Virus record (IMG/VR): IMGVR_UViG_3300021426_000096
Length of the DNA: 64,000 nt
From: a virus
Strand: one strand, 5' to 3'
The notes beneath the pieces were generated by a model, which was given only the letters and a program-made list of their open reading frames with translations, made no database searches and was not told where the DNA came from. Each line of letters opens with the position of its first letter. The first letter of the stretch is position 1. Below, piece after piece: positions 38,949 to 60,414 of this stretch. The translations under genes and the position numbers were made by a program.

Positions 38949-38951
38949 ACT

Positions 38952-39066: not shown

Positions 39067-39112
39067 TATCAGAGATAAAGAAAGAAGTTAAACCAATAAA
39101 ATTATAAGTGAT

Positions 39113-39796
39113 ATGAATCCTCAGATGTTTGCTGCCACTGAAAATGAGAAGATTATGTATGTTGTCAATGATGTGCTTGGTGCCACCTCTCCCAAGACAG
39201 CTGTTGACATGAGAACCATTGTTGACAAAGGTATTGACCTTGGTCTGACCCATGATTACCCCAGAGGCAGGCAGGATGGTCATCCCTGGTGGCCTCACAC
39301 TGCTGTGATGATGGGTGTGGGTAGTCCCACTGCTGTGGAGAACTTTGAAGAACCCTACCTCCACAGAAACAAGATGAAGAAAGGGAATACCAGAGTCAGG
39401 ATGTACTACTGGGTTGACAAATCCCACAGACATGAGATGGTAACCAAGGATGCCAAGGCAACCAAGTATGGTGAATCCACTACAAATAAGGTACACATCC
39501 CCAGAGTCAAGGTGTCCACTGACCCTGCTCTTATGACCAAGGTATGTGACTACCTTGACAAGAAAGGATACAAGTATCTCTTTGGTATCCAGGGAAGCAC
39601 CCACATCCTCACTCTCAACCTGTGTGGTGAATACTTCCTTCACATCCCTGTCACCACTGAAACTGCTGACAGAGTACTGGGACTCATCCCTTACTTCTTT
39701 CACAGACCTGATTATGCCAAGGAAGAAATCCCTGGCGCATACATCAAGAAGAACTGGAAGCTCAAGAATATCTGGAACACCTGTACTTCCAAGTAA
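39113..39796 (+). CDS. hypothetical protein, GHPWW family (paralog of 15159..15773)
   Basis: See 15159; the 261-aa antisense ORF 39044..39829 is rejected. Confidence 0.6.
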   Translation: MNPQMFAATENEKIMYVVNDVLGATSPKTAVDMRTIVDKGIDLGLTHDYPRGRQDGHPWWPHTAVMMGVGSPTAVENFEEPYLHRNKMKKGNTRVRMYYWVDKSHRHEMVTKDAKATKYGESTTNKVHIPRVKVSTDPALMTKVCDYLDKKGYKYLFGIQGSTHILTLNLCGEYFLHIPVTTETADRVLGLIPYFFHRPDYAKEEIPGAYIKKNWKLKNIWNTCTSK

Positions 39797-39814
39797 ACCA
39801 AACACCTCCTTACC

Positions 39815-39852
39815 AAGAGACTCTCCCAACCAAGGAGGGTCTCTTCCATTTT
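39815..39852 (+). terminator. stem-loop terminator candidate
   Basis: AAGAGACTCTCCCaaccaaGGAGGGTCTCTT. Confidence 0.4.
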
Positions 39853-40407
39853 AACATGGTTGTCAGCCCGGTGGAGATTCTCCAGCAGCTGGACCTTGGT
39901 CCAGGACCTGATGACCATGGGTCACCAGCATGGGTCACTCCTATCCAACCACTCTCCATCTCCTCTCATCTCATTGCGACCTGCGCCAATCGCATCCAAA
40001 AATTTTTCCATCAGGATGTTTCATCTCCATCAGAGTTCTCATCAGGATAATTATCTCCTCATCTGATTCCACTCTTCACTCTTTTCTATACTATAGTCTT
40101 CTACTTCCAGGAATTCTTCCAGGAAAAGATCTACTTCTGTTAAATTTCCACCCCTGTATATTCATTTTCACCAAAAAACACCCAATTTCATCTTTTTCCC
40201 CAGTACAGATATTCCTGGAAATACTGTATTTCCCCATTTTTAACCAATATGACAAAATGTCAGAAAATCACCTTTTTTGACATTTTTCACAAGATCTGTC
40301 AAAATCACACTTTTCCACTTTTCCCCATTTTTCCAAAAAACCAAAAAATCACCTTTTTTCACTGCGATGGCGATTTTTGCAAAATACCCAATTTTCCCAT
40401 TTTCCCC

Positions 40408-40600
40408 AAAATGCCCATTTTTGGGATATCCTGGATTTTGGCTATTTTGGGGATATCCTGGAAAATGGGGTTTTCCAGAAAATGGCCATTTTTGGGGTTT
40501 TGGAGGATCTTCCAAAAATGGCCAATTTTGGGGTTTTTGGGAAAATGGTCAAAAATGGGGTTTTCTGGGGATACCCCCAAAATGGTGATTTTTGGACGAT
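40408..40600. repeat. degenerate 27-35 bp tandem units carrying CC(A/T)6GG boxes in both orientations
   Basis: CCATTTTTGG (40412, 40482), CCAAAAATGG (40512), CCAATTTTGG (40522), CCAAAATGG (40577); GGGATATCCTGG twice. Confidence 0.7.
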
Positions 40601-40905
40601 CACGATGTGCGACTTCCCCCACACGCACTATATGGAGGGGAGTATCTTACAAACTCCTGGGGAGTCTTTCTATATTTTTTTAATATATATATTTTGATAA
40701 TCCATTTTGTGTAATTTGTAAGTCATTGATTTTCAGTCTATTTCATATAAGTTATTGGTACACAAAGTGGAAGAAAATGGAAGAAAGTGGTAAATATAGT
40801 AAGTGGATGTCAGAAATTAAGGTAGATCACCCAAATTATATGCAAAATACAGACATTGTATGACCACTTTTGTTATATTTGTATATAGAGATATAATAGT
40901 AATAT

Positions 40906-41145
40906 ATGAAGAAGATCAAGATTGGTACATCCTCATTGCATGGGGACATATTGGAAGATTATGATAAGGCAAGAGCTTGTAATTTCTGTACTCACTTTTG
41001 TGGGTATGGGTTGCATGCTTGTTGTGGTCATTGTGATTATAAGGGTGAAGATATAGAGGGAGGATACATTGGTAATTATAGGAAGGTAGGAAAGGATTGT
41101 GAAGGGTTTGATTGTAGGAAAGAATTTCTTGTAGTGGAGGAGTAA
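40906..41145 (+). CDS. Cys-rich small protein
   Basis: CNFCTHFCGYGLHACCGHCDY; start of a lower-GC module with AGG/GGG/ATA-rich codon usage. Confidence 0.45.
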   Translation: MKKIKIGTSSLHGDILEDYDKARACNFCTHFCGYGLHACCGHCDYKGEDIEGGYIGNYRKVGKDCEGFDCRKEFLVVEE

Positions 41146-41324
41146 TATATGTTTAAGAACTGCAAGAACAAGTATGATGCCTGTGACAGGGCGATCACAT
41201 TCATATATGGTAAGGATTATTTGGACAGTCTTGGTGAGGATGAGTATCTTCGTCTTGTAAGGATTGCCAAGTTCTTGTTTGAATCTGGTATGAGATGGCA
41301 GAGAGATAATGGAAAGGAGGAAAT

Positions 41325-41519
41325 ATGATGAGAGATTATGTATTCCCTATTGGGATAGATAAGAATGGTAAGAAGTTCCAATGGGTTGAAGATTGGGATG
41401 TAATTGATTGTAGTGAGTGTTGTTTTTGGGAAGGGAGATGTATGTACAAGGAGCTTAACAACAACAAGAAGGGAGAATGTATAGGAACCGGATATTTCAG
41501 GAGGGTAGTGAGTATATAA
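41325..41519 (+). CDS. Cys-rich small protein
   Basis: DCSECCFWEGRC...GECIG. Confidence 0.4.
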   Translation: MMRDYVFPIGIDKNGKKFQWVEDWDVIDCSECCFWEGRCMYKELNNNKKGECIGTGYFRRVVSI

Positions 41520-41715
41520 GATAATAGTAATATATGGAAAAGGCATTAGAGTATCTTAACAGTCATATGATTGTGAAACATAGGAGGGAGACTGAATCTT
41601 CATCCATTGCTGACAGGTATAATTATGTTGAGTGGGATGAGTATTATGTAAGTAAGGAGGATGCTATCAAGGCGATTGAGATTGCATTGAGTGATATAAA
41701 ATAATAATTGGGTAT

Positions 41716-42228
41716 ATGTGTTTGTTTAGAAAGAAGGAAAAGAACAATCTTCCTATTGGGAAACTGGCTTTTTTTGATGGTAATAATGATTATGAGTTTG
41801 TTGATCTTGGGTTGAGTGTGAAATGGGCCAATAAGAATATTGGTTCAGAATATGAGGACAAGATTGGTACTTATTTCAATTATGATGAAGCGGAAGACAG
41901 GTATTATGATCTGCCCACTGTTGATGAGGTGAGGGAGTTGTTTGAGAAATGTAAGATCAAGTATGACAAGAAGAGGAATGGGTTCATTGTTGTTGGGGTG
42001 AATGGGAATAGGATATTCATTCCTGTGAGTGGAGAGAGGGATGGTAATGCCAGGTATGAAGGAGGATACTTCTGGACTAATAGTGATCATGAGGAAGGAT
42101 ATATGGAGGGGTATAAGTATTATGGTTGTGTCTATTTGAAGAGTAAGGTTCTGAAGAAGGTCAAGACAGAAGTGAATCTGTTGAAAAAGGATGGGTTCTG
42201 GATCAATGTGAGGGAAGTGGAAAGATAA
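41716..42228 (+). CDS. FISUMP / DUF1566-like (Fibrobacter succinogenes major paralogous) domain protein
   Basis: FVDLGLSVKWANKNIG...LPTVDEVRELFE...NGFIVVGVNGNRIFIPVSG.RDGNARYEGGYFWTNSD.EEGY...GCVYL follows the domain layout seen at the C-terminus of the 2153-aa protein (GWRLPTKDEWDYI...). Confidence 0.5.
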   Translation: MCLFRKKEKNNLPIGKLAFFDGNNDYEFVDLGLSVKWANKNIGSEYEDKIGTYFNYDEAEDRYYDLPTVDEVRELFEKCKIKYDKKRNGFIVVGVNGNRIFIPVSGERDGNARYEGGYFWTNSDHEEGYMEGYKYYGCVYLKSKVLKKVKTEVNLLKKDGFWINVREVER

Positions 42229-42246
42229 TAAAAAAATTAAATAATT

Positions 42247-42483
42247 ATGGAAATAGTTTCAACAACACCTCCAAGGAAAACCAAGGAAAAGAAGTATATG
42301 TTTGTGTGTAAAACTTGCCAAAAGGAAGAAAACGGATTTAATTACAGTAAGACCAAGTTCATTGCCGATTATCCAAAAGATTTCTTTACTGGTATCACAC
42401 TGGAATATTGTAAATGTCCTCTATGTGGAGCATTACATTCAAAATCTATTATAGCAAGACTCCGCTACCTGTTATATAAATAA
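42247..42483 (+). CDS. zinc-ribbon small protein
   Basis: CKTCQ...CKCPLCG. Confidence 0.45.
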   Translation: MEIVSTTPPRKTKEKKYMFVCKTCQKEENGFNYSKTKFIADYPKDFFTGITLEYCKCPLCGALHSKSIIARLRYLLYK

Positions 42484-42495
42484 GGAGGTTTAAAG

Positions 42496-42981
42496 ATGAA
42501 GAAGTTATTATTTATTTTCTGTTTATTGTTTTGTCTGTCTTGTAAGTGCCAGGTGGTGTCATCATCCATTGGTGATATTACCGACATTATGCTGTTGGAT
42601 CCTGTATGTGATGATGAGGAATTGGTTGGAGATCATTATATATGGGGTTATGTTGTCATTGACAGTACTGCATGTAATAAAGATATGAGTAATGGGATAA
42701 GCAGTATCATCAACAATCCTGATTATATATACTCATTGGATGAAGACACTGTATGTTATTGTGAGTTTTTGCCTGACATCTGTATAAGGTGTGAGAATGC
42801 GGATATTTTTATTGAGTTCAGTACATACAGTATATTATACAAGTTCTGTGATGGGAGTGAGGCTGATGATTATTATTTGAATATTGAGGGATACAGTAGA
42901 TTATTGGATTATTGTATTGAACTGTTTCCTGGAGATGATATATTGAAGGAGTACAAGAAAAAGTTGGAAAATATAAAATAA
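42496..42981 (+). CDS. putative lipoprotein
   Basis: MKKLLFIFCLLFCLSCKC signal plus lipobox. Confidence 0.5.
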   Translation: MKKLLFIFCLLFCLSCKCQVVSSSIGDITDIMLLDPVCDDEELVGDHYIWGYVVIDSTACNKDMSNGISSIINNPDYIYSLDEDTVCYCEFLPDICIRCENADIFIEFSTYSILYKFCDGSEADDYYLNIEGYSRLLDYCIELFPGDDILKEYKKKLENIK

Positions 42982-43373
42982 ATCATTATATTTGTAATAG
43001 GTATAATTGACAGATGTCTTGTTTGATCGTTGCTAAATACCGGGATGAAGTTGCCTGGGGTCGAGACTAACAGTAGAGGTGTTCACTGCTTTGGGGATGA
43101 TAACCAACTACCCTGTTACACAAGAGCTGAGACAAGGCGCTCTTATAGACAAAAGGATGTACGCAAAAGCAGATATGATACATCTGTCATTTTTTTAATA
43201 AGTTATAAATATGATTTGGATTTTGATAATTTTTATGTTGTATTCTCTGATTGGTGCATTGGTTTGTAACAAGATTAATGCATTATATGGGAGTGATGAT
43301 ATTGTTGAATTGATTGTTGATAGTATACTGATAGTCTTCTGGCCTATCACTGTAATGTGTCATTTTTTATTGG

Positions 43374-43856
43374 ATGATTAATATGATTAGTGAAAAGGAA
43401 AAGAGAAGATTGTTATTGATGGATCTTGGCATGCGCTTGGGTTATGGTGTAATGATATTGGATATACCTGCCAAGCGTGATGGCAAGATATTCATTTTAA
43501 GTACATTGGATGATTATCAGTATGACACTGATGAGGATTCTCATTATCAGAGTGTTTATAACATCCTGCCTTATCTCAGACCTATGGAGAGTATGACTAA
43601 AGAGGAGGCATCCGAGATGTTCAGACTGATGTATACTGACAGGAATCTAATCAGTGTGGATATTGAAAAGGATGGCATGAGGTTTGGTTATACCAAAGAT
43701 GGTGTATTCTGTCATGTGTTTCTTTTATTCAATGAGATTTACTCATTGAAGCAGTTGGATTGGTATAACAAGAAGATGTTTGATTACAGGGGTTTGATCC
43801 CTATGGGGATTGCCCTGGAAGCAAAAGAAGGAATGTATAATATAAAGGAGAAATAA
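43374..43856 (+). CDS. hypothetical protein
   Basis: 160-aa ORF. Confidence 0.5.
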   Translation: MINMISEKEKRRLLLMDLGMRLGYGVMILDIPAKRDGKIFILSTLDDYQYDTDEDSHYQSVYNILPYLRPMESMTKEEASEMFRLMYTDRNLISVDIEKDGMRFGYTKDGVFCHVFLLFNEIYSLKQLDWYNKKMFDYRGLIPMGIALEAKEGMYNIKEK

Positions 43857-43858
43857 TT

Positions 43859-44059
43859 ATGACACAAGAAGTACAGATACAAGTATTGGAGGATGTCATT
43901 AAGGTGCTTACCAATTCAGACACAATTGATGAAGCCCTTGATAAATCCTTACAAATCATAAGAGAAGAAAAAGAAAAGGTATATCAAGAGGAAATTCCAT
44001 ACTCTGCTTATGAAAGATTAGAGGTATATGTTGAAAATCTTAAAAAAGACTTAAAATGA
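43859..44059 (+). CDS. hypothetical protein
   Basis: 66-aa ORF. Confidence 0.4.
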   Translation: MTQEVQIQVLEDVIKVLTNSDTIDEALDKSLQIIREEKEKVYQEEIPYSAYERLEVYVENLKKDLK

Positions 44060-44538
44060 TCGCAGAAGATTTCGTTAGTTTAGAGACTGCCAAACTCCTG
44101 AGAGAGAAGGGGTTTAAGAAGTGGTGTTATAAATGTTATGGTACTGCTGTATATCATAAAGGAGTACCCATCAGTTTTGATGAGGAATGTGAACTGAAAG
44201 ATGAAGGACATGGAGATGAAATTGAATATGTTGAAGGTGGGCATCTTTATGATTTCGGGTGTAATAACAGTGAAAAGGAAACAAATTTATGGGCTGCACC
44301 AACACTATGGGTGGCAATGAAGTGGATAATGGAGAAAGGGTTTTACATCTTTGTCCCCCTGGAAATTGATTATGATGAGGATGAGAGAGGAACTAAGTGG
44401 TATCATAATGCTACATATTATCCTGAAATAAGAAGGGTCTCTGACGGAAAGATAATGTATGATGATGGCAGACTTTATGCAAAACCAGAACAAGCATATG
44501 AAGTGGCGATAAGGTATTGTCTTGAAAATCTGATTTAG
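44056..44538 (+). CDS. hypothetical protein
   Basis: 160-aa ORF; ATGA overlap. Confidence 0.5.
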   Translation: MIAEDFVSLETAKLLREKGFKKWCYKCYGTAVYHKGVPISFDEECELKDEGHGDEIEYVEGGHLYDFGCNNSEKETNLWAAPTLWVAMKWIMEKGFYIFVPLEIDYDEDERGTKWYHNATYYPEIRRVSDGKIMYDDGRLYAKPEQAYEVAIRYCLENLI

Positions 44539-44650
44539 TTATGAGTGAGGAAGAAAAACAGCTGCTGCTTAAAGACCTTTGTGGAAGATATCCATATGTG
44601 GCTTACCCTATAAGCAAAGGAAGGAATGTATAACAAATAAGTACTAAAAT

Positions 44651-45157
44651 ATGAAAAAAGAAATAGAAATACCGGAAGGTTATGAGGCCAGAATTGAAGG
44701 GAACAAGGTTGTAATTGAACCAAAGGAAAGTGAGGATGAGAGGATAAGGAAGATGCTCATTGAGCAAATGAAGAGATGGAAAAAATGTGCAGAGGATAAT
44801 AATGTTGAACAAGATGTCAAAGATGCTACTGATGCTATAGCCTACCTTGAAAAACATAAAGAACAGAATCTGGTAGAGTGGAGTGAGGAAGATGAGAAAA
44901 AATTAAAGACTGTCATATCTTTAATGAAGTCAAGCCGTGCGGTGGATCCGTTTTATGATAAGATGTACCTTGAAGGTTGGCTCAAATTACTTCCAGAAAG
45001 GTTTAATTCACAGTATCATTGGAAACCTAGTGAGTATCAGATGAAAGCTCTGAAAGATGTGATTGACAGAGTACTTTTGACTTGCAGACAACAGGTCCCA
45101 TTAGAATCACTCTACAATGACTTAAATAAACTATTTGAGAATGAAAATACAATATAA
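44651..45157 (+). CDS. hypothetical protein
   Basis: 168-aa ORF. Confidence 0.5.
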   Translation: MKKEIEIPEGYEARIEGNKVVIEPKESEDERIRKMLIEQMKRWKKCAEDNNVEQDVKDATDAIAYLEKHKEQNLVEWSEEDEKKLKTVISLMKSSRAVDPFYDKMYLEGWLKLLPERFNSQYHWKPSEYQMKALKDVIDRVLLTCRQQVPLESLYNDLNKLFENENTI

Positions 45158-45479
45158 ATCACGCAAACAAGATATAGAATCAGACAAGAGATATCTTTGT
45201 TATAGGATAGACCCTTCTGAATTATCATAGTGGGAAAGGATTTTTAAAAATCCTTGGAAGAGTGTTTTTACATCATATCGTATTGTATTCAAGTATGATA
45301 AGGATGTAAATGATTGCCTGTGTTTTTTATTTTCTTTAAAAGAGGCACAGGAAATTGTTAAAAAATATGATACCTATGAAAAATTAACTGATTTCTTGAC
45401 AGATGAATATAATAAGGCATCAGACAGATTTCATAGAGCCCAGGAAAACTATAATAATAATTGGACTTTTTAATATATT

Positions 45480-45665
45480 ATGAAGAAGACATATGTTGTA
45501 CCAAAATCTGATTTGATTGAAATTGGATGTGAAGGAATTATTGCAAGTAGTGGTAGTAGTGTTGATGAACATTATTGCAGGTGTGATGAAAACTGCGGAA
45601 TCTGGCACACTTGCTTGGATAGGCAACTGTATAAGACCTGCTTTGATAAAAAAAGAAAATATTAG
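45480..45665 (+). CDS. Cys-rich small protein
   Basis: 61 aa, HYCRCDENCGIWHTC; followed by a terminator. Confidence 0.35.
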   Translation: MKKTYVVPKSDLIEIGCEGIIASSGSSVDEHYCRCDENCGIWHTCLDRQLYKTCFDKKRKY

Positions 45666-45677
45666 TTGATTATGAAT

Positions 45678-45710
45678 AAAAAAGGAGACTCTTGATTGAG
45701 TCTCCTTTTT
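45678..45710. terminator. bidirectional rho-independent terminator between convergent genes
   Basis: aaaaaGGAGACTCttgattGAGTCTCCttttt. Confidence 0.7.
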
Positions 45711-45772
45711 CTGTATAGAATTGAGATTATGTGTTATCAACAACGGTCCAACCAGATGGGATACCATTCATA

Positions 45773-48700
45773 TTAGTTGTCAGCAAGTCGGACTGTCCAA
45801 TTAACAGGAATACCATTCTCATTAGTTGTCCAACCAGACATACCCGATTTCTTTACAAATGTACCAACAGAAGCAACTCCAGACACCCAACTAGTAGTAC
45901 AGGCGCCTGCAGATACACTTGTTGCAAGACATTTGATGTAATTAAGACTTCTACAATTTTGGAACATATATCTATAACAATATGTTACTAAAGTAGAAGC
46001 AAGGAGATCAGGCGCTGTAGTCAATGTAGTACAACCTTTAAACATACTATAATAACATGCATTAACCAATGTAGTTGCCGGAAGTGCAGGTGCCGTAGTC
46101 AATGCAGTACAACCTTCAAACATGCTACAATAACAGTATTGTTTGAGTGATTTTGCTGGGAGTTCTGGCGCTGTAGTCAATGCAGTACAGCCAGAGAACA
46201 TATAATAATAGCAAAAATCTGTCATAGAGGTTGCTGGAAGAGTTGGTGCTGTAGTCAATGCAGTACAGCCAGAGAACATATATGCATAACAATATTTAGC
46301 TAATGTAGTTACAGAGAGAGTTGGTGCAGTGGTTAAACTAGTACAATTTTGGAACATACAATAATAAGCCTGATATCCAACACTACTTGGCATTATTAAA
46401 TTCTTCGCAGATACCACAGGAGTTCCCTTAAACAAATAAGGTTGAGATTCATTGGTACTGCGATATATTGAAGATAAATTACCACCTACTTCAAAACTGG
46501 CAGTTGTTCCTTGGAATGAACTATATAAATCTACATTGTTATCATATATACCCGCTCCAAACTTGAACTGCACAATGTCTCCAGCAACAACACTGATGGT
46601 GGTTCCATTGTCAGAAGAAACAATATTTGTCCAGGTTCCACCATTTTTAGAATATTTCAATGTTTTTATGCCACCAGAATTATATGGATCTTCTGAAGTA
46701 TTTATACAGTAATACTTCCAAGAGATATTACCATCACTTGTTATCTCAAATGTGAGAGGTTCATTAGAATAATCAACTTCAGCAGTCCATCCAGTTGGGA
46801 TACCACTTGTACCAGTAGTCCATGAGGAACTCAAAACTTTTACAAATGTACCCGTTGCTGCAACTCCATCTACCCAATCTGTTAATCCTGAACTGTAGCT
46901 GAGGTCCGTAGCTGAACACTTAATATAATTCAAATTACTGCATCCCTTGAACATATAAGAATAACAATTACTTGCTAATACAGCAGCAGGAAGTACTGGA
47001 GCTGTTGTTAATCCGGTACAACCATAGAACATGTTACAATAACAGTATTGTTTGAGTGATTTTGCTGGGAGTTCTGGCGCTGTTGTTAATCCGGTGCATC
47101 CGTAGAACATACTTCTATAGCATGCCATAAATAAATTAGTAGCTGGGAGTTCTGGAGCTGTTGTTAACGATGTACAACCTTTAAACATACAATCATAACA
47201 GTATTGATTAAGTGTAGTAGCAGGAAGTTTTGGTGCTTTAGTTAAATTAGTACAACCTTCAAACATATTTTCATAACAACCCCATTTTAGTGATGTTGAT
47301 GGAAGAATAAGATGCTCCGCTGATATTAATCCATCACAATCAACAAACAAACATGCATATTCCAAATTTGATGCATCGGCGGACATAAAATCATCCCCAG
47401 CAGTTAACGACATTATGTTTCCATAAACATCTACTTGGATAGATGACGATTTTATGTAAAAATAATTATAATATGATGTGTTACCACCAACATAATTACC
47501 TTTAACTCTTACTTTATCACCGGTAAGAACATCAATAGAGCCAGCAGCATATTTATTTGGGGTTATTTTCTGCCATTCGCCATTATTTACAGAACAATAT
47601 ATTGGATAAGCAGTTGCACCATTATCATTAATTTTCCATGTGATTCTTCCACCGGATTTAACATCAAATGTAAGATACTGCTGTGTATACTCATATTCAG
47701 TTTCACTATAAACATTCCAGCCTGAAGGAATACCACTTGCCCCAGTTGTCCACGAATCTATATTGTCTGCTTTAACAAATGTGCCTGTTTCTGCTACTCC
47801 ATATACCCATTTACCTGTGCAACTATCAGCAGATATATCTATTGCAAGACATTTGATATAATTAAGGTTAGTACAACCATTGAACATATAATAATAACAA
47901 TATTTTGTCAATGTAGTAGCAGGGAGTTCAGGTGCTGTTGTTAGACTTGTACAATTAGAGAACATATATCCATAACAATAACCTACCAATGTAGTAGCCG
48001 GAAGCTCAGGTGCTGTGGTTAGACTTGTACAATTAGAGAACATATAAAAATAACAACATGTTGCTAATGTAGTAGCAGGAAGAACTGGTGCTGTAGTTAG
48101 ACTAGTACAACCATAGAACATATATTCATAACAATATTTTGTCAATGTAGTAGCAGGAAGAACTGGTGCTGTAGTTAGACTAGTACAACCATAGAACATA
48201 TATTCATAACAATAGTCTGCCAATGTAGTAGCTGAAAGCTCAGGTGCTGTTGTTAGACTTGTACAACCAAAGAACATACTGGAATAACAATAGTCTGCCA
48301 ATGTAGTAGCAGGGAGTTCAGGTGCTGTGGTTAGACTAGTACAGCCATCAAACATAGACCGATAACAATAATCAACTAATGTAGTAGCAGGGAGTTCAGG
48401 TGCTGTGGTTAGACTTGTACAACCAAAGAACATACCGGAATAACAATAACTCACCAATGTAGTAGCAGGGAGTTCAGGTGCTGTGGTTAGACTAGTACAA
48501 CCATTGAACATACCCAAATAACACCCAGTTGCTAATATAGTAGCAGGGAGCGTAGGTGCTGTTGTTAGACTAGTACAACCATTGAACATATACCGATAAC
48601 AATAGTCTGCCAATGTAGTAGCAGGGAGAATAAGGTTTTCTGCTGATAATAATCCAGTACAATTATAGAATAAATATGCAAACGTATAAGATGATGATAA

Positions 48701-50926
48701 TGCAATTAAATTAGAGAAATTATCACCACCAATCAAAGACATTATATTACCATCTGTATCAAATGTGGCTGTTCCGCCAAATGAATTAGTATATCCATAT
48801 GAGTCACGTGTTGAATAAGCTGAGTTATTACCCTTGAATCTCACTTTATCTCCTGTGACAACAGGTATAGATACACCTTCTGTTGTAGATGTTATATCCG
48901 TCCATTCACCATCATTCTTTGAATAAGATATGGTTTTTGCAGTGGCTGAACTGGAATTCATCTTCCAAGTGATATTACCACTTGATTTAATGTTAAATGT
49001 AAGATAATTTAAAGGTATATTAAAGATATCATTAGTACTATTACTAACAACTTTGATTTCATCACCAGGATCAAAACCCCTTGCTGTAAATGTTGCAATA
49101 TTATTTGTCACATTCACAGTCTCAATCTCTGTATTATTGACATAAAGTGTCAATGAATCACCATCATTGGTGTAACACTTGATAACCCTATTTTCATATT
49201 TCTCATAATCCTTTCCACAGATATGTACAAACTTATCTGTCTGGTTCCACCAAGCCTTATAAAGATAGAATGTATCTTTCTTTGTCCTGTGGTCTCTCTC
49301 AATAAGACCCTTGTTATTGAGTCTTCTCAACTCATCATCAGTATATGAGTTCTCACCATCAAGACATACTGTATAACCCTCATTTCTGTTGGACACAGCA
49401 ATATCAAAGAACTGCCATTCACTTGTAAACAACAATTGAGGGAAGTTCTTGATCGCTGCGATATGTCCTTCGTGAAGCCACATCTGGTATTCAATGTCAT
49501 GTCTCTCATGGTTACCCCTTGTTGTGGTAGACATATAGTTTTCAGAGTGGCAGTGTTGTGTACCACCACAACCATATTCAGAATAAGCAATAGGTCTGTC
49601 AGGCACATTGTTAAGACGGGTATTAAGTTGTGATGTTGGGTTATTTGAAGATGTGTTTGAATACCAACCAACATAGATATTACAACCATACCAATCCATA
49701 TCAGCACCACCAACAGTTGACCTTGGATTACTACTACTAGCATTAAGCACACAACCAACCATACGTTCAGTATCATATTCCTTGATGATGTCCCTGAAGT
49801 GTTCAAGTTTAGTACAGGCAAATGCTCCACCATCACTATCCATCTGTGCATTGAACTCATTACCAAGTCCCCAGAACATAATACAAGGGTGGTTATAATG
49901 CTGTGTAACCATATCATAATACTGATCTTCAAGATGGGTATAATAATCTTCCGGTTGTGTTGATTTGATATTATTCACCAATGGGACTTCTGTCTGTACA
50001 ATGATACCCAATCTGTCACACCAATCATATACCTCCTTTGGGTGTGGATAGTGTGCAAGACGGATGAAGTTACAACCAACCTCATTAATCATTGCAAACT
50101 CCTGTGTGTAATCAGCATCATCAAGAGCATTGGCCTTTTCTTCAAGGTCATCATGCATACATACACCCCTCAATAAGTATGGAGAACCATTGAGAAGGAA
50201 TCCTGTGTATGTTTCATTATTAGGAAGAGTATAATTATATACATATGAATAATACCTTATACCATATCCTCTCTGGAATCTATGATAAAGGTCACCATTC
50301 TTATAGATTTCAAGAGTAACATCATAAAGATGAGGATTAATCTTACCATTCCAAAGGGTAGGATTGGTGATAGTAGTAATGAATGACATCTCCTCACCAG
50401 TACTTGGTTTCTCATCATAGTAGTGATAGTTACTGTCATCATCATCAATCTTACATACAACTGTTGCTCCAACAGGAACACTGGTCTTGATAGTAAGTGT
50501 TGCTGCTGCTGAAGACACATTAGTTGCTGTTATATGGAAACCATCATATCCATAAAACATATCAGGCATCACTGGACTGGTTATGACCTTCACCTTACCC
50601 AATGTGGCATTGAAGTTAAAGTCTGCTGAACAAGGGGCAAGGGTGCTCCTGGTTGTATTACACAATATAACCTTTATCTCATTTTCACCTGCATGTACAT
50701 ATTCACTGATATCTGTGAAGAATGCATTATATCCTCCCCAGTGGGTTGTTACCTTTACATTATCAACATAGATATCTGCTGATTGGTCAGCATGCTGAAA
50801 CCACAAATAGGTTGGCTGAACCTTTGGCAGATTGATTGTTGTTGTAAATGTGTAATTACCCTTTGAATAAGATGATGAATGTCCATCAATTCTATTAACT
50901 GAATAAGGTACTGTTATATTACTCAT
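45773..50926 (-). CDS. giant modular protein: N-terminal GH2 glycoside hydrolase + beta-sandwich units + BspA-type LRR arrays (candidate tail fibre / depolymerase)
   Basis: First ATG at 50926 (the track start at 50971 is TTG and overlaps the upstream stop). GH2 acid/base HYNHPCIMFWGLGNE and nucleophile PIAYSEYGCGG; then repeated MF.GCTSLTTAPELPATTL..YCY 26-aa units and NYIKC...GIP.GW caps. Confidence 0.8.
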   Translation of the reverse strand: MSNITVPYSVNRIDGHSSSYSKGNYTFTTTINLPKVQPTYLWFQHADQSADIYVDNVKVTTHWGGYNAFFTDISEYVHAGENEIKVILCNTTRSTLAPCSADFNFNATLGKVKVITSPVMPDMFYGYDGFHITATNVSSAAATLTIKTSVPVGATVVCKIDDDDSNYHYYDEKPSTGEEMSFITTITNPTLWNGKINPHLYDVTLEIYKNGDLYHRFQRGYGIRYYSYVYNYTLPNNETYTGFLLNGSPYLLRGVCMHDDLEEKANALDDADYTQEFAMINEVGCNFIRLAHYPHPKEVYDWCDRLGIIVQTEVPLVNNIKSTQPEDYYTHLEDQYYDMVTQHYNHPCIMFWGLGNEFNAQMDSDGGAFACTKLEHFRDIIKEYDTERMVGCVLNASSSNPRSTVGGADMDWYGCNIYVGWYSNTSSNNPTSQLNTRLNNVPDRPIAYSEYGCGGTQHCHSENYMSTTTRGNHERHDIEYQMWLHEGHIAAIKNFPQLLFTSEWQFFDIAVSNRNEGYTVCLDGENSYTDDELRRLNNKGLIERDHRTKKDTFYLYKAWWNQTDKFVHICGKDYEKYENRVIKCYTNDGDSLTLYVNNTEIETVNVTNNIATFTARGFDPGDEIKVVSNSTNDIFNIPLNYLTFNIKSSGNITWKMNSSSATAKTISYSKNDGEWTDITSTTEGVSIPVVTGDKVRFKGNNSAYSTRDSYGYTNSFGGTATFDTDGNIMSLIGGDNFSNLIALSSSYTFAYLFYNCTGLLSAENLILPATTLADYCYRYMFNGCTSLTTAPTLPATILATGCYLGMFNGCTSLTTAPELPATTLVSYCYSGMFFGCTSLTTAPELPATTLVDYCYRSMFDGCTSLTTAPELPATTLADYCYSSMFFGCTSLTTAPELSATTLADYCYEYMFYGCTSLTTAPVLPATTLTKYCYEYMFYGCTSLTTAPVLPATTLATCCYFYMFSNCTSLTTAPELPATTLVGYCYGYMFSNCTSLTTAPELPATTLTKYCYYYMFNGCTNLNYIKCLAIDISADSCTGKWVYGVAETGTFVKADNIDSWTTGASGIPSGWNVYSETEYEYTQQYLTFDVKSGGRITWKINDNGATAYPIYCSVNNGEWQKITPNKYAAGSIDVLTGDKVRVKGNYVGGNTSYYNYFYIKSSSIQVDVYGNIMSLTAGDDFMSADASNLEYACLFVDCDGLISAEHLILPSTSLKWGCYENMFEGCTNLTKAPKLPATTLNQYCYDCMFKGCTSLTTAPELPATNLFMACYRSMFYGCTGLTTAPELPAKSLKQYCYCNMFYGCTGLTTAPVLPAAVLASNCYSYMFKGCSNLNYIKCSATDLSYSSGLTDWVDGVAATGTFVKVLSSSWTTGTSGIPTGWTAEVDYSNEPLTFEITSDGNISWKYYCINTSEDPYNSGGIKTLKYSKNGGTWTNIVSSDNGTTISVVAGDIVQFKFGAGIYDNNVDLYSSFQGTTASFEVGGNLSSIYRSTNESQPYLFKGTPVVSAKNLIMPSSVGYQAYYCMFQNCTSLTTAPTLSVTTLAKYCYAYMFSGCTALTTAPTLPATSMTDFCYYYMFSGCTALTTAPELPAKSLKQYCYCSMFEGCTALTTAPALPATTLVNACYYSMFKGCTTLTTAPDLLASTLVTYCYRYMFQNCRSLNYIKCLATSVSAGACTTSWVSGVASVGTFVKKSGMSGWTTNENGIPVNWTVRLADN

Positions 50927-50958
50927 ATATATTAATTTTTTTCCTTTATTATATTTAT

Positions 50959-57420
<6,462 letters not shown>

Positions 57421-57508
57421 AACAGTTTATTATTTTTATAAATTATATAAGTTATTTATGGGTTTTAGTAATTTTTGTTATTTTTGTATTAGGATAAAAG
57501 ATTAAATT

Positions 57509-58330
57509 ATGGGTAAGATTTTTAGTAAAGTAGATTATGGTAATGGTTCAAAATATTGGTTCTTCTTTAATAGGGTGATAGCCAAAAAGATGGATACCTG
57601 TTTCTATCTATTGAAGAAACCAAAAGAAGGTGAATATATAGGTGATGATTGGTATGCTGGTTGGCATGACTGGAAGTTTGACATCTCTTATGAAGAGTGT
57701 GGATATGATTCAGGAAATGCTGAATTGAATATTAGTATTCTGGGGTGGCATTCTGTATTCAAACTCCCATGGAAGAGTAAGAGATTTCCTGACGGCGATT
57801 GCGATGCACCAAAGTGGGGTATCGCAATTCATAATGCAACACTCTGGATTTATAAAGGTGGTAATGGAAACTGGGGAGGAGGATCCAAGTGGTGGACCTG
57901 GGACATACCATTCTGGACAAAGATACATGTAAGACATGATGTACAATGTAATGTTGGAGATTATGACAGTGACCCTACACTCATAATGGTACCTTATGAT
58001 AACCTGGAGAGATATGTTGATGATAAATATATTCCTCTTGAACAGAATGAACTGGTCTATAAGTACCACTATGATTACACAGACAAGTATGATGGTAAGG
58101 TCATTCCTTGTACTTTCTGGGTTGAAGAAAGGGAATGGAGACCAAAGTGGTTGACATGGACAGGAAGATGGAAAGAGGTTGACAGATATATTGAGATTGT
58201 TTTCTCTGATGAGGTTGGAAGTAGAAAAGGATCTTGGAAAGGTGGTTGTATTGGATGTAGTTATACACTCAAAGAAGGTGAGACCCCTATGGACTGCATC
58301 AAGAGGATGGAAAAAGAAAGAAGTTTTTAA
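57509..58330 (+). CDS. Trp-rich hypothetical protein
   Basis: 273-aa ORF, diverges from the giant gene. Confidence 0.5.
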   Translation: MGKIFSKVDYGNGSKYWFFFNRVIAKKMDTCFYLLKKPKEGEYIGDDWYAGWHDWKFDISYEECGYDSGNAELNISILGWHSVFKLPWKSKRFPDGDCDAPKWGIAIHNATLWIYKGGNGNWGGGSKWWTWDIPFWTKIHVRHDVQCNVGDYDSDPTLIMVPYDNLERYVDDKYIPLEQNELVYKYHYDYTDKYDGKVIPCTFWVEEREWRPKWLTWTGRWKEVDRYIEIVFSDEVGSRKGSWKGGCIGCSYTLKEGETPMDCIKRMEKERSF

Positions 58331-58331
58331 T

Positions 58332-58706
58332 ATGGAAAGTGAATACACCAAAAGAATCAAGAAAAGGATTGGTGAAAATGTAGATGGTAGGACAGATTAT
58401 TTTGACCTTGACCATGAACAAACTATAAATACGATTAAGGAAAAACTTGCTGCTGGCAATTTTTCCTGTACATTTTGGACATTTGAATGGGGAGAAAAAC
58501 AACTTGCACAGGTTGATGAAGAACTAACAAAAGAAGGTATTGTCCATTGCTGGGATGAAGTGATGGATGCCTTTGTCTGCTTCAACTCTGTTGAGGATAT
58601 GAAAAACTTCTATATAAAATTGAGGATTGAAACCCCAGTTGAGAAACTGAGAGAGATTGCAGAGAAAGGATATAATACACCAGTAATAAAATTCTTTAAA
58701 AACTAA
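58332..58706 (+). CDS. hypothetical protein
   Basis: Start MESEYTKRIKK immediately after the upstream stop. Confidence 0.45.
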   Translation: MESEYTKRIKKRIGENVDGRTDYFDLDHEQTINTIKEKLAAGNFSCTFWTFEWGEKQLAQVDEELTKEGIVHCWDEVMDAFVCFNSVEDMKNFYIKLRIETPVEKLREIAEKGYNTPVIKFFKN

Positions 58707-58740
58707 TGTGTCCAAAATCATACAATGAAAAATAAAAGTT

Positions 58741-58923
58741 ATGAATAAATTTGATATAGACTCATTATTGATAGGATTGTCAGTGATCATACTGATCCTT
58801 GGTATTGTCCTGAATTTTTCTGTCCTATTTATCATTGGAATAATTGGTACACTTGTTGTCAGTGTAATTGATTTTAACAAGATGCCTGTTCCAAGAATTG
58901 ATGATGGTGATTCTGATGAATAA
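58741..58923 (+). CDS. small membrane protein
   Basis: LLIGLSVIILILGIVLNFSVLFIIGIIGTLVVSVI. Confidence 0.4.
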   Translation: MNKFDIDSLLIGLSVIILILGIVLNFSVLFIIGIIGTLVVSVIDFNKMPVPRIDDGDSDE

Positions 58924-58944
58924 ATTATTAAATATCAATTAATT

Positions 58945-59223
58945 ATGAAGAATTATACTATTGGTACATTCCTTTATGGAATACCTTCTAATGAAGTAGT
59001 TGCGAGTTATCATCCAGAAGACCAGAGGGTATTCATCTATAATGGTTACACTTCTGGTGATGGATATGGTATGTTGATTGGATGGGAAGATGGCAAACTG
59101 GTACACAGTACAGGTTGGGGAAACTTCTGCTGGGGTGGTGATGTTCGTCTTGCCACAGAAGAAGAGATTAAACAGTTTATGAACCAGGTCTACAACAATG
59201 ATGCAATTCATTATAGAATGTAA
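58945..59223 (+). CDS. hypothetical protein
   Basis: 92-aa ORF. Confidence 0.45.
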   Translation: MKNYTIGTFLYGIPSNEVVASYHPEDQRVFIYNGYTSGDGYGMLIGWEDGKLVHSTGWGNFCWGGDVRLATEEEIKQFMNQVYNNDAIHYRM

Positions 59224-59397
59224 TGGGACTCTATTTTAAATGTCACAAATGTGGTAAATATTTCATTGACCAGCAGGGTGAAAATGAAATTGATTATGAA
59301 AAAGGACTGTATAGATGTCCTGAATGTGATACAACACTTTCAGTAGATTCTGATAGTGTTGAATATGATTATGACTTGTTCAATAAGAAATAATTTT
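59224..59397 (+). CDS. zinc-ribbon small protein (57 aa)
   Basis: CHKCG...CPECD; below the track cut-off. Confidence 0.3.
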
Positions 59398-59426
59398 GGA
59401 ATTATCAGAAAAAGCAATTATATTTG
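59395..59426 (+). promoter_or_regulatory. Bacteroidetes-type promoter (variant -7 TATATTTG)
   Basis: TTTG 59395-59398, TATATTTG 59419-59426. Confidence 0.55.
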
Positions 59427-59433
59427 TAGTACT

Positions 59434-60096
59434 ATGAAGACATACAAAGAATATTACCAGATTGGATTGAGTCATCACCTTGATTGGAAATCAAAACAGG
59501 ATGAAGAGTGGTGGAAAAATAAGAATGATTTTGGTTACCTTGAATTAAAAGGTGATTTTATTGAGACTGTCAAGTTCCTCTCCATTGATGAGAAGAATGA
59601 TGCATCACTGTTCATCAACACAACCAATGTGAAGAACAGTGAGTGGGGCATACTTTTTTCCATGCTTGGTCAGGCACTTGTTGACTGGTGTGTGGAGAAT
59701 GTAAGTTGGAAAAACCTCTGGTCTATACATTTTCAAATAAAAAGGTCTATTGATGAGAATGGTATGAATTTCTATGTTCCTACCATCTCTGTGGAAAATT
59801 TCAAGATAGAAAAGAACGGAAAGTTCAAATGGAAAAAGTCTGAAAAAGAAACCAATGAGAGGAAACTCAAGAAGTTTGAGGAATGTAATGATTTCCTTTG
59901 CAAACTTGTTGTGGAGTTCATTGAGAGTCATGGAGTTGATATTCCCAATGACTGGAATGATTTTAGTTTTGGACTTGACTCACTCTGTGAAAGTTGTAAG
60001 TGGGGCGAGTGGGTTTGTGCATCTGATGGTTATATGAATCTTGGTAACTACAATGTAGAAGAAGGGGAGTATGACCAGTTTGTAGAATGTATGTAA
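59434..60096 (+). CDS. hypothetical protein
   Basis: Start MKTYKEYYQ after the promoter. Confidence 0.5.
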   Translation: MKTYKEYYQIGLSHHLDWKSKQDEEWWKNKNDFGYLELKGDFIETVKFLSIDEKNDASLFINTTNVKNSEWGILFSMLGQALVDWCVENVSWKNLWSIHFQIKRSIDENGMNFYVPTISVENFKIEKNGKFKWKKSEKETNERKLKKFEECNDFLCKLVVEFIESHGVDIPNDWNDFSFGLDSLCESCKWGEWVCASDGYMNLGNYNVEEGEYDQFVECM

Positions 60097-60097
60097 T

Positions 60098-60409: not shown

Positions 60410-60414
60410 GTAAT

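What the first reader, a model, noticed from the sequence alone, without database searches (positions are those of the whole stretch)
48976..50926. Intact GH2 glycoside hydrolase as the N-terminal domain of a giant LRR protein
The first ~650 aa of the 45773..50926 product have a GH2 layout: jelly-roll sugar-binding domain, Ig-like domain, then a TIM barrel. Both catalytic glutamates appear in signature contexts: acid/base in HYNHPCIMFWGLGNE and nucleophile in PIAYSEYGCGG. A catalytically competent beta-galactosidase, mannosidase or glucuronidase-family enzyme fused to BspA-type LRR arrays is an unusual depolymerase-like design. It could target a Bacteroidetes capsular polysaccharide or a host or mucin glycan.
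Basis: partly seen in the sequence, partly recalled or inferred. Interest (0 to 1): 0.75.

Follow-up and report, generated by a model that had tools for sequence, protein, structure and literature searches.

The report
Phage giant protein with glucuronidase-type enzyme
A very large virus of ruminant-gut bacteria encodes a 1,717-residue protein whose first 640 residues are an intact sugar-cleaving enzyme of the beta-glucuronidase type, joined to three sticky leucine-rich-repeat modules; this is probably a surface-glycan-trimming appendage, though its place on the virus particle is not shown.

Summary
The ORF 45773..50926 (-) is real: 1,717 aa, and called identically on an independent 96-kb metagenome contig. 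Residues 1-640 are a complete four-domain GH2 enzyme. E357 and E450 align with E413 and E504 of E. coli GUS. All seven residues of the published beta-glucuronidase rubric are present, as is the loop-8 Arg. All are invariant in 147 of 147 relatives. The AlphaFold model's top 40 PDB matches are all bacterial beta-glucuronidases. The enzyme is therefore a beta-hexuronidase type, not a generic galactosidase or mannosidase.

Residues 641-1710 form three paralogous modules: a beta-sandwich, 26-aa BspA/PARCEL repeats, and a cap. The upstream 2,153-aa gene has five more. The setting is a huge phage. Relatives lie on 360-435 kb viral contigs from ruminant guts. They form a discrete clade, at least 58% identical internally and at most 38% identical to anything else.

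In relatives GH2 usually sits at the C-terminus of 1,000-2,000-aa proteins. One relative fuses the neighbour's N-terminal domain, LRR modules and GH2 in a single chain.

GH2 uronidases act from chain ends, so "depolymerase" is unsupported. Virion attachment and substrate are inferred only. Rumen virome surveys already list GH2 as an auxiliary gene.

The parts
45773..50926 (-). Whole gene: a 1,717-aa GH2-LRR protein. ATG at 50926. The TTG at 50971 is an upstream alternative that overlaps the neighbour's stop.
   Evidence: ORF list. The identical 1,717-aa gene is called on an independent contig. Homologue P0001 starts MSNITVPYSVN. The N-terminus is hydrophilic and the GH2 fold starts at residue 3-4, so there is no room for a signal peptide.
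50582..50917 (-). GH2 sugar-binding jelly-roll domain, about residues 4-115.
   Evidence: Pfam PF02837, 29 bits. Strands 24-116 in the AlphaFold model.
50222..50539 (-). GH2 immunoglobulin-like domain, about residues 130-235.
   Evidence: Pfam PF00703, 29.9 bits. Model strands 131-233.
49241..50209 (-). GH2 TIM-barrel catalytic domain, about residues 240-562.
   Evidence: Pfam PF02836, E 4.1e-27. Alternating strand and helix pattern in the model. TM 0.82 to bacterial GUS structures.
49856..49858 (-). Codon of E357, the predicted acid/base, in WGLGNE. N356 precedes it.
   Evidence: Aligns to E. coli GUS E413 and N412. Invariant in 147/147. Codon checked.
49577..49579 (-). Codon of E450, the predicted nucleophile, in AYSEYG.
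   Evidence: Aligns to E. coli GUS E504. Invariant in 147/147. Codon checked.
49307..49318 (-). N537-N-K539-G540, the NxKG motif that binds the C6 carboxylate of a uronic acid.
   Evidence: Aligns to GUS N566, K568 and G569. N537 and K539 are invariant in 147/147. G540 is invariant in the 12- and 36-sequence alignments. Role of the motif from PMC12243196 and PMC12660308.
49016..49234 (-). C-terminal beta-sandwich of the GH2 unit, about residues 565-637.
   Evidence: Model strands 567-636 with pLDDT above 90. Aligned with the C-terminal domain of 6mvf and 7kgz.
47717..49006 (-). LRR module 1, residues 641-1070: a beta-sandwich (YLTF..ITWK), about 10 repeats of 26 aa, and a cap (NYIKC..GTFVK..GIPSGW).
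   Evidence: Motif scan. Pfam LRR_5. A 78-bp tandem repeat of 9.7 copies at 47869-48628. Paralogue alignment A3.
46787..47677 (-). LRR module 2, residues 1084-1380, with 5 repeats.
45797..46759 (-). LRR module 3, residues 1390-1710, with 5 repeats.
   Evidence: 78-bp repeats at 45974-46327.
50959..57420 (-). Upstream partner gene of 2,153 aa. It has an N-terminal domain, acidic ES/DS linkers, five modules of the same LRR type, Ig-like spacers and a C-terminal domain of about 250 aa. A 32-nt spacer separates it from the GH2 gene.
   Evidence: ORF. Modules. Pfam Fn3_assoc and CHB_HEX_C_1. Weak Lcl_C hit. Same gene pair in L001/L002. No open frame that would allow a frameshift fusion.
57196..57420 (-). 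N-terminal domain of the partner protein, residues 1-75. It is the candidate attachment domain.
   Evidence: 48% identical (E 8e-37) to the N-terminus of the 1,361-aa ORF in L023, which continues through two LRR modules into a C-terminal GH2. It has no match in any annotated phage.

Best explanation
The gene encodes a catalytically competent, retaining, exo-acting GH2 beta-hexuronidase, most likely a beta-glucuronidase. The enzyme is joined in one chain to three BspA/PARCEL-type LRR binding modules.

The gene belongs to a two-gene unit of a huge phage (genome about 400 kb) of ruminant-gut bacteria, probably Bacteroidales. Its partner is a 2,153-aa protein built from the same modules.

The most likely role is extracellular and particle-associated. 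The two proteins would form, or decorate, a long modular fibre. The LRR and beta-sandwich modules would hold the particle on a glycan-rich surface. The GH2 unit would clip terminal beta-linked glucuronic acid from a host surface polysaccharide. That could unmask or reach a receptor during adsorption, or destroy receptors on release.

Shown: the fold, the catalytic and specificity residues and their strict conservation, the modular anatomy, the phage setting, and the fusion with the partner's N-terminal domain in a relative.

Inferred: enzyme activity, the uronic-acid substrate, exo-action, presence in the virion, and the identity of the glycan.
For: Enzyme:
- Three GH2 Pfam domains score above their cut-offs.
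- PDB phmmer gives 5.9e-68 to 6mvf, a beta-glucuronidase.
- The best NCBIfam model is 'beta-glucuronidase LacZ4', E 8.5e-82.
- E357/E450 align to GUS E413/E504, and N356, Y418, R514, N537, K539 and G540 align to GUS N412, Y468, R562, N566, K568 and G569.
- These are the published GUS/hexuronidase markers.
- The ten counted active-site residues (the markers except G540, plus D128, H292, Y422 and W504) are invariant in 147/147 family domains that are only 54-89% identical overall. G540 is invariant in the 12- and 36-sequence alignments.
- The AlphaFold model has pLDDT 86.5 and pTM 0.89.
- The top 40 Foldseek PDB hits are all beta-glucuronidases, TM about 0.82.

Phage setting:
- The window holds PHROG hits and an Acb3 anti-CBASS gene.
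- Relatives lie on IMG/VR contigs of 360-435 kb and beside phage-type genes.

Discrete clade:
- Representatives are 58-73% identical, and the next relatives drop to 38% or less.

Fibre-like or extracellular logic:
- There is no signal peptide, whereas several of the nearest outgroup GH2s do have one.
- 68 of 146 relatives carry GH2 at the extreme C-terminus of proteins up to 2,069 aa, with Ig-like spacers.
- L023 joins the partner's N-terminal domain, LRR modules and GH2 in one ORF.
- GH2 is 89% identical to P0001, but the attached module is only 57% identical and differs in module number.
- In L013 the neighbours are an LRR_5 protein, a protein with YadA-head repeats and a match to phrog_3279 (tail fiber), and an Lcl_C-like protein.

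Host: co-binned MAG labels are mostly Bacteroidales. A rumen virome paper assigns its GH2-carrying vOTUs to Bacteroidota hosts.
Against: - No homology ties either protein to a known virion component. PHROGs gives only an unknown-function family for the window proteins (phrog_9915) and nothing for seven relatives' N-terminal extensions. tblastn of the N-terminal domain and of an LRR module against 50,697 phage records finds nothing.
- The operon sits among small accessory genes, next to an anti-defence gene, and not in a recognisable structural block.
- In L025 a stand-alone GH2 lies among replication and recombination genes.
- 69 of 146 relatives appear as stand-alone enzymes, although some of these are fragments.
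- Known phage depolymerases are endo-acting beta-helix trimers, whereas bacterial GUS enzymes are typically tetramers (established knowledge).
- Glucuronic versus galacturonic specificity cannot be read from these residues.
- The score for the LacZ4 equivalog model is far below its cut-off, 275 against 950 bits.
Confidence: 0.55

Rival explanations
1. Auxiliary metabolic gene. The enzyme is made in the infected cell or released at lysis. Its role is to feed host metabolism by freeing glucuronic acid from plant, microbial or host glycoconjugates, with no role in the particle.
For: - Rumen virome surveys classify phage GH2 genes as AMGs.
- 69 of 146 relatives look like stand-alone enzymes.
- In L025 and L003/L004 the gene sits beside replication and metabolic genes such as topoisomerase II, RecA, PolB, SAM synthetase and ferritin.
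- The window operon lies among accessory genes.
Against: - There is no signal peptide, so the enzyme cannot reach extracellular glycans before lysis. Cytoplasmic glucuronides would need a transporter, and none is seen nearby.
- Fusion to 1,000-1,400 aa of LRR and Ig-like binding modules, and to a conserved N-terminal domain in L023, is not expected of a metabolic enzyme.
- The binding part evolves much faster than the enzyme, 57% against 89% identity.
Confidence: 0.17
2. Lysis-released free adhesin-enzyme. It is not attached to the particle. After lysis it binds cell debris or neighbouring cells and strips terminal uronic acids. Progeny are then not trapped on dead cells, or competing phages lose their receptor.
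For: - No homology to virion proteins was found.
- The GH2 protein of the window lacks the N-terminal domain that its partner has.
- An exo-glycosidase suits receptor destruction (inference by analogy).
Against: - In L023 the N-terminal domain, modules and GH2 are one chain.
- In most relatives GH2 is the distal end of a giant modular chain, which is the layout of attached fibres.
- Nothing distinguishes this reading from the best explanation except attachment, and attachment is untested.
Confidence: 0.15
3. The GH2 unit has a different specificity, such as beta-galactosidase or an untried sugar, or it serves as a non-hydrolytic lectin-like binder.
For: - GH2 is multifunctional, and majority-rule prediction can fail (PMC12243196).
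- Identity to characterised GUS enzymes is only 23-30%.
- The score is below the NCBIfam equivalog cut-off.
Against: - Both catalytic Glu and all uronate-binding residues are invariant in 147/147.
- Subfamilies lacking uronidase activity lack the Arg, Tyr and NxK markers.
- All top fold matches are GUS.
Confidence: 0.08
4. The locus is bacterial, a Bacteroidales surface-protein gene, and not phage.
For: 35 related loci sit in genomes labelled as bacterial MAGs, mostly Bacteroidales.
Against: - Those contigs include the same 410,106-bp sequence that IMG/VR lists as viral.
- The flanks are dense small ORFs without Pfam hits, plus phage-type genes.
- The window holds PHROG families and Acb3.
- There is no signal peptide or anchor.
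Confidence: 0.03

Closest known systems
Gut and oral bacterial GH2 beta-glucuronidases (GUS): F. prausnitzii FMN-binding GUS 6MVF, T. forsythia mL1 GUS 8DHE, B. uniformis GUS-2 5UJ6, E. coli GUS 3K46
   Same: - Same four-domain fold, TM about 0.82.
- Same catalytic pair and the full seven-residue GUS rubric plus the loop-8 Arg.
- Like the No-Loop classes, it lacks the long active-site Loop 1 of E. coli GUS. It has a 19-residue deletion in the alignment.
   Different: - Only 23-30% identical.
- Encoded by a huge phage, with no signal peptide.
- Fused to LRR modules.
- The FMN-site aromatic pair of 6MVF is not kept. F124 is variable across the family, and position 149 is Ser.
- Forms its own clade, at most 38% identical to everything else.
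Phage tailspike and tail-fibre depolymerases (P22 endorhamnosidase, K1F endosialidase, Acinetobacter APK tailspikes)
   Same: - The concept of a glycan-cleaving enzyme carried on a long modular receptor-binding protein.
- A conserved N-terminal part with shuffled distal parts.
   Different: - Those enzymes are endo-acting, mostly beta-helix trimers (established knowledge). This one is a TIM-barrel exo-glycosidase family.
- Virion attachment is unproven here, and there is no sequence link to any tail protein.
BspA-type LRR (Pfam LRR_5) / PARCEL-repeat surface proteins of Bacteroidota and Firmicutes (for example BACOVA_01565 4FDW, EUBVEN_01088 4H09, PcpA 4CP6)
   Same: - 26-aa repeat, Pfam LRR_5 at 81 bits, TIGR02167.
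   Different: - No secretion signal or anchor.
- Each array is preceded by a ~100-aa beta-sandwich and closed by a conserved cap (NYIKC..GTFVK..GIPxGW).
- The module is iterated eight times in two phage proteins.
'GH2 auxiliary metabolic genes' listed in rumen virome surveys
   Same: Phage contigs from rumen carrying GH2, with predicted Bacteroidota hosts. These probably include this clade.
   Different: Those papers give only a CAZy family label. They do not report subfamily, active-site analysis, fusion architecture or the huge-phage setting.
Viral receptor-destroying exo-glycosidases (influenza neuraminidase). This is a functional analogy only.
   Same: An exo-glycosidase that removes a terminal acidic sugar, possibly carried on a virus particle (inference).
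   Different: No homology and a different fold. The role here is hypothetical.

Membership tests
Glycoside hydrolase family 2 (GH2) | Three-domain core (sugar-binding jelly roll, Ig-like, TIM barrel) recognised by family profiles. | tested here: met
   PF02837 scores 29.0 against a cut-off of 28, PF00703 29.9 against 23, and PF02836 95.5 against 21. 123 PDB GH2 chains match at E<=1e-3. Fold TM is 0.82. dbCAN/CAZy itself could not be run.
Glycoside hydrolase family 2 (GH2) | Catalytic acid/base Glu and nucleophile Glu on the TIM barrel. | tested here: met
   E357 and E450 align to E. coli GUS E413 and E504. Both are invariant in 147/147.
GH2 beta-glucuronidase / beta-hexuronidase (GUS rubric) | Seven conserved residues: the NxKG motif, the two catalytic Glu, and the N and Y motifs. 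Also the loop-8 Arg. | tested here: met
   N537, K539, G540, E357, E450, N356, Y418 and R514 are all present. All but G540 were counted and are invariant in 147/147. G540 is invariant in the 12- and 36-sequence alignments.
GH2 beta-glucuronidase / beta-hexuronidase (GUS rubric) | At least 25% identity, or E<0.05, to a reference GUS of known structure. | tested here: met
   E. coli GUS gives E 7e-26 at 23% identity. 6mvf gives E 5.9e-68.
GH2 beta-glucuronidase / beta-hexuronidase (GUS rubric) | Measured hydrolysis of beta-D-glucuronides, and discrimination from galacturonides. | not testable with these tools
   This needs an enzyme assay. GH2_3 contains both activities with the same markers.
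FMN-binding No-Loop GUS (6MVF class) | Aromatic residues at the positions of Tyr154 and Phe179 of Fp2GUS. | tested here: not met
   In the alignment, taking a tag offset of 23, these positions map to F124 and S149. Position 149 is non-aromatic. Position 124 is variable across the family, with only 3 of 147 having Phe. The offset is my inference.
NCBIfam NF050095 'beta-glucuronidase LacZ4' (equivalog) | Score at or above the curated cut-off of 950 bits. | tested here: not met
   It scores 275 bits, E 8.5e-82. This is the best-scoring model but far below the cut-off.
BspA-type leucine-rich repeat (Pfam LRR_5) | Profile match above the cut-off, and an LRR solenoid fold. | tested here: met
Phage tail fibre / tailspike depolymerase | Homology of some part to a known tail, fibre or baseplate-attachment protein. 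| tested here: not met
   PHROGs gives only unknown-function families and none for seven relatives' extensions. tblastn against phage records finds nothing. A neighbouring gene in L013 hits phrog_3279 (tail fiber) at 4e-7.
Phage tail fibre / tailspike depolymerase | Physical presence in the virion. | not testable with these tools
   This needs particle proteomics or EM.
Phage tail fibre / tailspike depolymerase | Endo-cleavage of a host surface polysaccharide. | not testable with these tools
   It was not assayed. Characterised GH2 GUS-type enzymes are exo-acting (established knowledge), so it is expected not to be met.
Huge (jumbo/mega) phage genome | Viral gene content, and relatives on contigs longer than 200 kb classed as viral. 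| tested here: met
   PHROG hits in the window. Acb3. Related loci on IMG/VR contigs of 218-435 kb, several of about 410-412 kb. PolB, RecA/UvsX and topoisomerase II beside relatives. The window itself is only 64 kb of a contig that is at least 96 kb.

The most novel reading that the evidence does not exclude
Huge phages of gut Bacteroidales display an active exo-beta-glucuronidase at the tip of giant LRR fibres and use it as a receptor-unmasking or receptor-destroying enzyme. This would be a bacterial-virus counterpart of neuraminidase. It would also mean that phage particles themselves carry part of the gut's glucuronidase activity, outside the catalogued bacterial 'GUSome'.
Probability: 0.3. 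Interest if true: 0.8.

Novelty: new variant of a known kind. Interest (0 to 1): 0.55.

Why it matters
Phage glycan-cleaving proteins known so far are endo-acting tailspikes. A strictly conserved exo-uronidase clade built into giant modular proteins of ~400-kb phages would add a different way for a virus to deal with surface sugars.

It would also give a concrete, assayable function to two of the largest genes of an uncultured phage group.

Beta-glucuronidases are studied intensively because they reactivate drug and hormone glucuronides. The atlases I read were built from bacterial reference enzymes and do not mention phages. A phage-borne clade would therefore be an uncounted source, at least in ruminants.

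The conserved enzyme paired with fast-changing LRR modules is also a ready-made system for studying how binding specificity is shuffled.

Tried and rejected
- Megablast of the gene and of window 1-25000 against 50,697 phage records found no match.
- tblastn of the partner's N-terminal 100 aa and of LRR module 1 against the same records found no match. Low-complexity masking may hide the repeats.
- tblastn of GH2 against phages found only matches of 30% identity or less, in unannotated human-faecal 'Bacteriophage sp.' records. These are not this clade.
- PHROGs on ten flanking ORFs and on seven relatives' N-terminal extensions gave no structural hit.
- The promoter and terminator scan of 45000-58500 gave counts no higher than in shuffled sequence, so it says nothing about operon structure.
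- A frameshift fusion of the two window genes is rejected. The GH2 frame has stops 15 and 20 codons upstream of the ATG.
- FMN binding is rejected on the two-aromatic criterion.
- A T9SS sorting tail in relative P0110 is only a weak Pfam hit on a 5.5-kb contig, so it was not pursued.
- Foldseek of the LRR module found nothing significant. The best hit for the N-terminal sandwich was CBM35, a uronic-acid-binding CBM family, at E 0.09. This is a lead only.
- Literature searches found nothing relevant for phage GH2/GUS, LacZ4, or LRR proteins in huge phages. The Lak megaphage paper mentions none of these features.


Full report
**1. The observation**

The ORF 45773..50971 (-) is present. The ATG at 50926 gives a 1,717-aa product. 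Exactly this product was called by an independent pipeline on a 96-kb metagenome contig, ENA ERZ12302851 NODE_238. The closest homologue also starts MSNITVPYSVN.

Pfam finds all three GH2 domains above their curated cut-offs, plus four stretches of BspA-type LRR_5. phmmer against PDB sequences gives 123 GH2 chains. The best is 6mvf_A at 5.9e-68, covering residues 3-613.

**2. Catalytic residues, tested rigorously**

I wrote out E. coli GUS from memory and verified it as identical over 603 residues to PDB 6lej_B. BLASTP and a 12-sequence MAFFT alignment place the window residues on these GUS residues:

| Window residue | E. coli GUS residue | Role |
|---|---|---|
| E357 | E413 | acid/base |
| E450 | E504 | nucleophile |
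| N356 | N412 | N motif |
| Y418 / Y422 | Y468 / Y472 | Y motif |
| W504 | W549 | |
| R514 | R562 | loop-8 Arg |
| N537-x-K539-G540 | N566-x-K568-G569 | NxKG motif |

The literature defines bacterial GUS by exactly these seven residues: NxKG, the two Glu, and the N and Y motifs (PMC12660308; PMC10162664). It separates GH2 beta-hexuronidases from beta-galactosidases by NxK, the upstream Arg and the loop-6 Tyr (PMC12243196).

I extracted 146 related GH2 domains and aligned them with the window's. They came from 120 database proteins and 29 fetched loci, of which 146 gave a long enough match. D128, H292, N356, E357, Y422, E450, W504, R514, N537 and K539 are invariant in 147/147. Y418 is present in 146, with one gap. 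Overall identity is only 54-89%. G540 was not counted in that census. It is invariant in the 12- and 36-sequence alignments.

An AlphaFold model of residues 1-650 has pLDDT 86.5 and pTM 0.89. It shows a jelly roll, an Ig-like domain, a TIM barrel and a C-terminal beta-sandwich. Its top 40 Foldseek matches in the PDB are all bacterial beta-glucuronidases, with TM about 0.82. The best NCBIfam model is 'beta-glucuronidase LacZ4' at 8.5e-82, well below its equivalog cut-off.

The enzyme is therefore a GUS-type beta-hexuronidase. Glucuronide and galacturonide specificity cannot be told apart from these markers.

Relative to E. coli GUS, 19 residues are missing in the Loop-1 region. This resembles the No-Loop and mini-loop classes that the GUS literature links to larger glycan substrates. 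That classification is approximate. The two aromatic residues used to recognise FMN-binding GUS are not conserved.

**3. The rest of the protein and its neighbour**

Residues 641-1070, 1084-1380 and 1390-1710 are three paralogous modules. Each has three parts:
- A ~100-aa beta-sandwich beginning YLTF..I.W.
- Five to ten 26-aa repeats of the form LPATTL..YCY..MF.GCTSLTTAP.
- A cap, NYIKC..W..GVA..GTFVK..W..GIPxGW.

The gene immediately upstream is 50959..57420 (-), 2,153 aa, separated by a 32-nt spacer. It contains:
- Five more modules of the same kind.
- Acidic ES/DS linkers.
- Fn3_assoc and CHB_HEX_C_1 Ig-like spacers.
- A distinct 75-aa N-terminal domain.
- A ~250-aa C-terminal domain with weak Lcl_C similarity.

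No reading-frame trick joins the two genes.

**4. The setting**

The window carries phage-family genes: a tRNA-His guanylyltransferase, a sigma factor and a methyltransferase. It also holds an Acb3 anti-CBASS gene directly upstream of the operon on the other strand, one tRNA and many small ORFs with no family.

Relatives of the GH2 domain, 55-89% identical, are found in three places:
- On IMG/VR viral contigs of 218-435 kb, several of about 410-412 kb.
- On metagenome contigs beside PolB, SAM synthetase, ferritin, topoisomerase II and RecA/UvsX.
- In 35 ruminant-gut 'MAGs', mostly labelled Bacteroidales. One of these is the same 410,106-bp sequence that IMG/VR lists as viral.

An exhaustive search of 1.84 billion cluster representatives shows a sharp gap. 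Family representatives are 58-73% identical to the query, and everything else is 38% or less. Several of the next-nearest proteins have classic signal peptides or lipoprotein boxes, and all that I checked keep NxKG. This fits capture from secreted bacterial GUS-type enzymes, which is my inference.

GC content of the operon (0.36-0.37) matches its flanks at 0.35. It is not a recent foreign insert.

**5. Architecture across the clade**

| Architecture | Relatives (of 146) |
|---|---|
| Stand-alone GH2 (some are fragments) | 69 |
| Long N-terminal extension, GH2 last | 68 |
| C-terminal extension, as in the window | 8 |
| Both | 1 |

The extended proteins reach 2,069 aa. Their extensions contain LRR modules and CHB_HEX_C_1/Fn3_assoc spacers but no PHROG family.

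In L023 a single 1,361-aa ORF runs from an N-terminal domain through two LRR modules and into a C-terminal GH2. That N-terminal domain is 48% identical to the one in the window's neighbour, E 8e-37. This is a Rosetta-stone link between the window's two genes.

Against its closest relative P0001, GH2 is 89% identical. The attached module is only 57% identical, and the number of modules differs. This pattern, a conserved enzyme with fast-changing binding parts, is the one seen in receptor-binding proteins.

In L013 the GH2 giant is flanked by an LRR_5 protein, a 1,138-aa protein with YadA-head repeats that also matches phrog_3279 (tail fiber) at 4e-7, and an Lcl_C/Fib_succ_major protein.

**6. 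What it most likely does**

Shown:
- An intact, strongly constrained GUS-type active site.
- Glycan- or surface-binding-type modules.
- No secretion signal.
- A huge-phage origin.
- A link to a conserved N-terminal domain.

Inferred:
- The two proteins form or decorate a long particle-borne appendage.
- The LRR modules bind a surface.
- The GH2 removes terminal beta-glucuronic acid from a host surface polysaccharide, either during adsorption or for receptor destruction.

The main weakness is that nothing ties either protein to a known virion component. The locus is also not in a recognisable structural block.

Three rivals remain open and are scored in the report: a metabolic auxiliary gene, a lysis-released free adhesin-enzyme, and a different sugar specificity. 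"Depolymerase" in the usual endo-acting sense is not supported, because characterised GH2 GUS-type enzymes are exo-acting (established knowledge).

**7. Comparison with what is known, and novelty**

The enzyme is a member of GH2 and passes the published sequence rubric for GUS. It fails the FMN-binding subclass test and the LacZ4 equivalog cut-off. The LRR part is a member of the BspA-type LRR family. Membership among phage tail fibres or depolymerases is not established.

Rumen virome papers already list GH2 among phage 'auxiliary metabolic genes', with Bacteroidota hosts. The bare presence of GH2 in rumen phages is therefore known.

I found no description of the following in the searchable literature:
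- The uronidase assignment.
- The discrete, strictly conserved clade.
- The huge-phage setting.
- The giant modular fusions.

I rate it a new variant of a known kind, of moderate interest. It would be higher if virion display is shown.

Noticed in passing
window 57509..58330 (+): A 273-aa protein matches Pfam PF25187, the CBASS inhibitor Acb3, at E 9.6e-35. It is transcribed divergently from the giant-protein operon. The same gene sits in the same place in relatives L001 and L002.
   Followed up: partly
window 1686..2492 (+), 12275..13165 (+), 5678..6541 (+), 8502..9686 (+): Phage-family hits: a tRNA-His guanylyltransferase (phrog_4717, 3e-59), an RNA polymerase sigma factor (phrog_351), a DNA methyltransferase (phrog_56) and an SPFH/Band-7 protein (PF01145). 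They mark the window as part of a large phage with its own transcription and tRNA-repair functions.
   Followed up: no
window 36716..36790 (+): A single tRNA-Arg (anticodon CCT), found by both ARAGORN and Rfam.
   Followed up: no
window 1..40000 versus 40001..64000: GC content drops from about 0.41 to about 0.35 near 40 kb, with a local peak of 0.47 at 38-40 kb. There, long ORFs overlap on both strands (39044..39829 - and 39113..39796 +). Few ORFs of 150 aa or more lie between 32.4 and 38.4 kb.
   Followed up: no
window 50959..51735 (-), C-terminal ~250 aa of the 2,153-aa protein: A distinct terminal domain with a DGWRLPTKDEW motif. It has only weak Pfam hits to Lcl_C (E 0.03) and Fib_succ_major (E 0.83). 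A separate 224-aa protein with clearer hits to both (2.5e-5 and 9.2e-5) lies downstream of the GH2 giant in L013.
   Followed up: partly
window 54597..54632 and the linkers of the 2,153-aa protein: A six-base tandem repeat (TTTCAC, 6 copies) encodes ESESES-type acidic linkers between modules. Similar GDSDSESD linkers occur elsewhere in the protein and in the L023 ORF.
   Followed up: no
L001 and L002, positions 1-715: An IS1595-family transposase (DDE_Tnp_IS1595) lies about 4 kb from the homologous giant-protein operon in the closest relatives. It is not seen at the corresponding place in the window.
   Followed up: no
P0267, P0269, P0270, P0274 and L024, L025, L031: Some GH2 proteins only 37-38% identical to the query also lack signal peptides. 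Their short N-terminal leaders (for example MKQIVRLTDKEKVILPVTAFEAVKDSDG) resemble those of the stand-alone phage-clade members (MKTIVINKSG..SPL.A.ES). GH2 uronidase-type enzymes may therefore have entered phages more than once.
   Followed up: no
homologue search with window 46787..47677: The sandwich + LRR + cap module is extremely widespread in metagenomes. All but 3 of the 8,000 scored candidates pass E<=1e-5. It occurs mostly as unnamed 400-520-aa stand-alone proteins, some on contigs of up to 398 kb.
   Followed up: no
L067 (P0110): One GH2 relative carries a weak match to the type IX secretion sorting domain (Por_Secre_tail). It is on a 5.5-kb contig. If the match is real, it would point to host-mediated surface display in some relatives.
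   Followed up: partly
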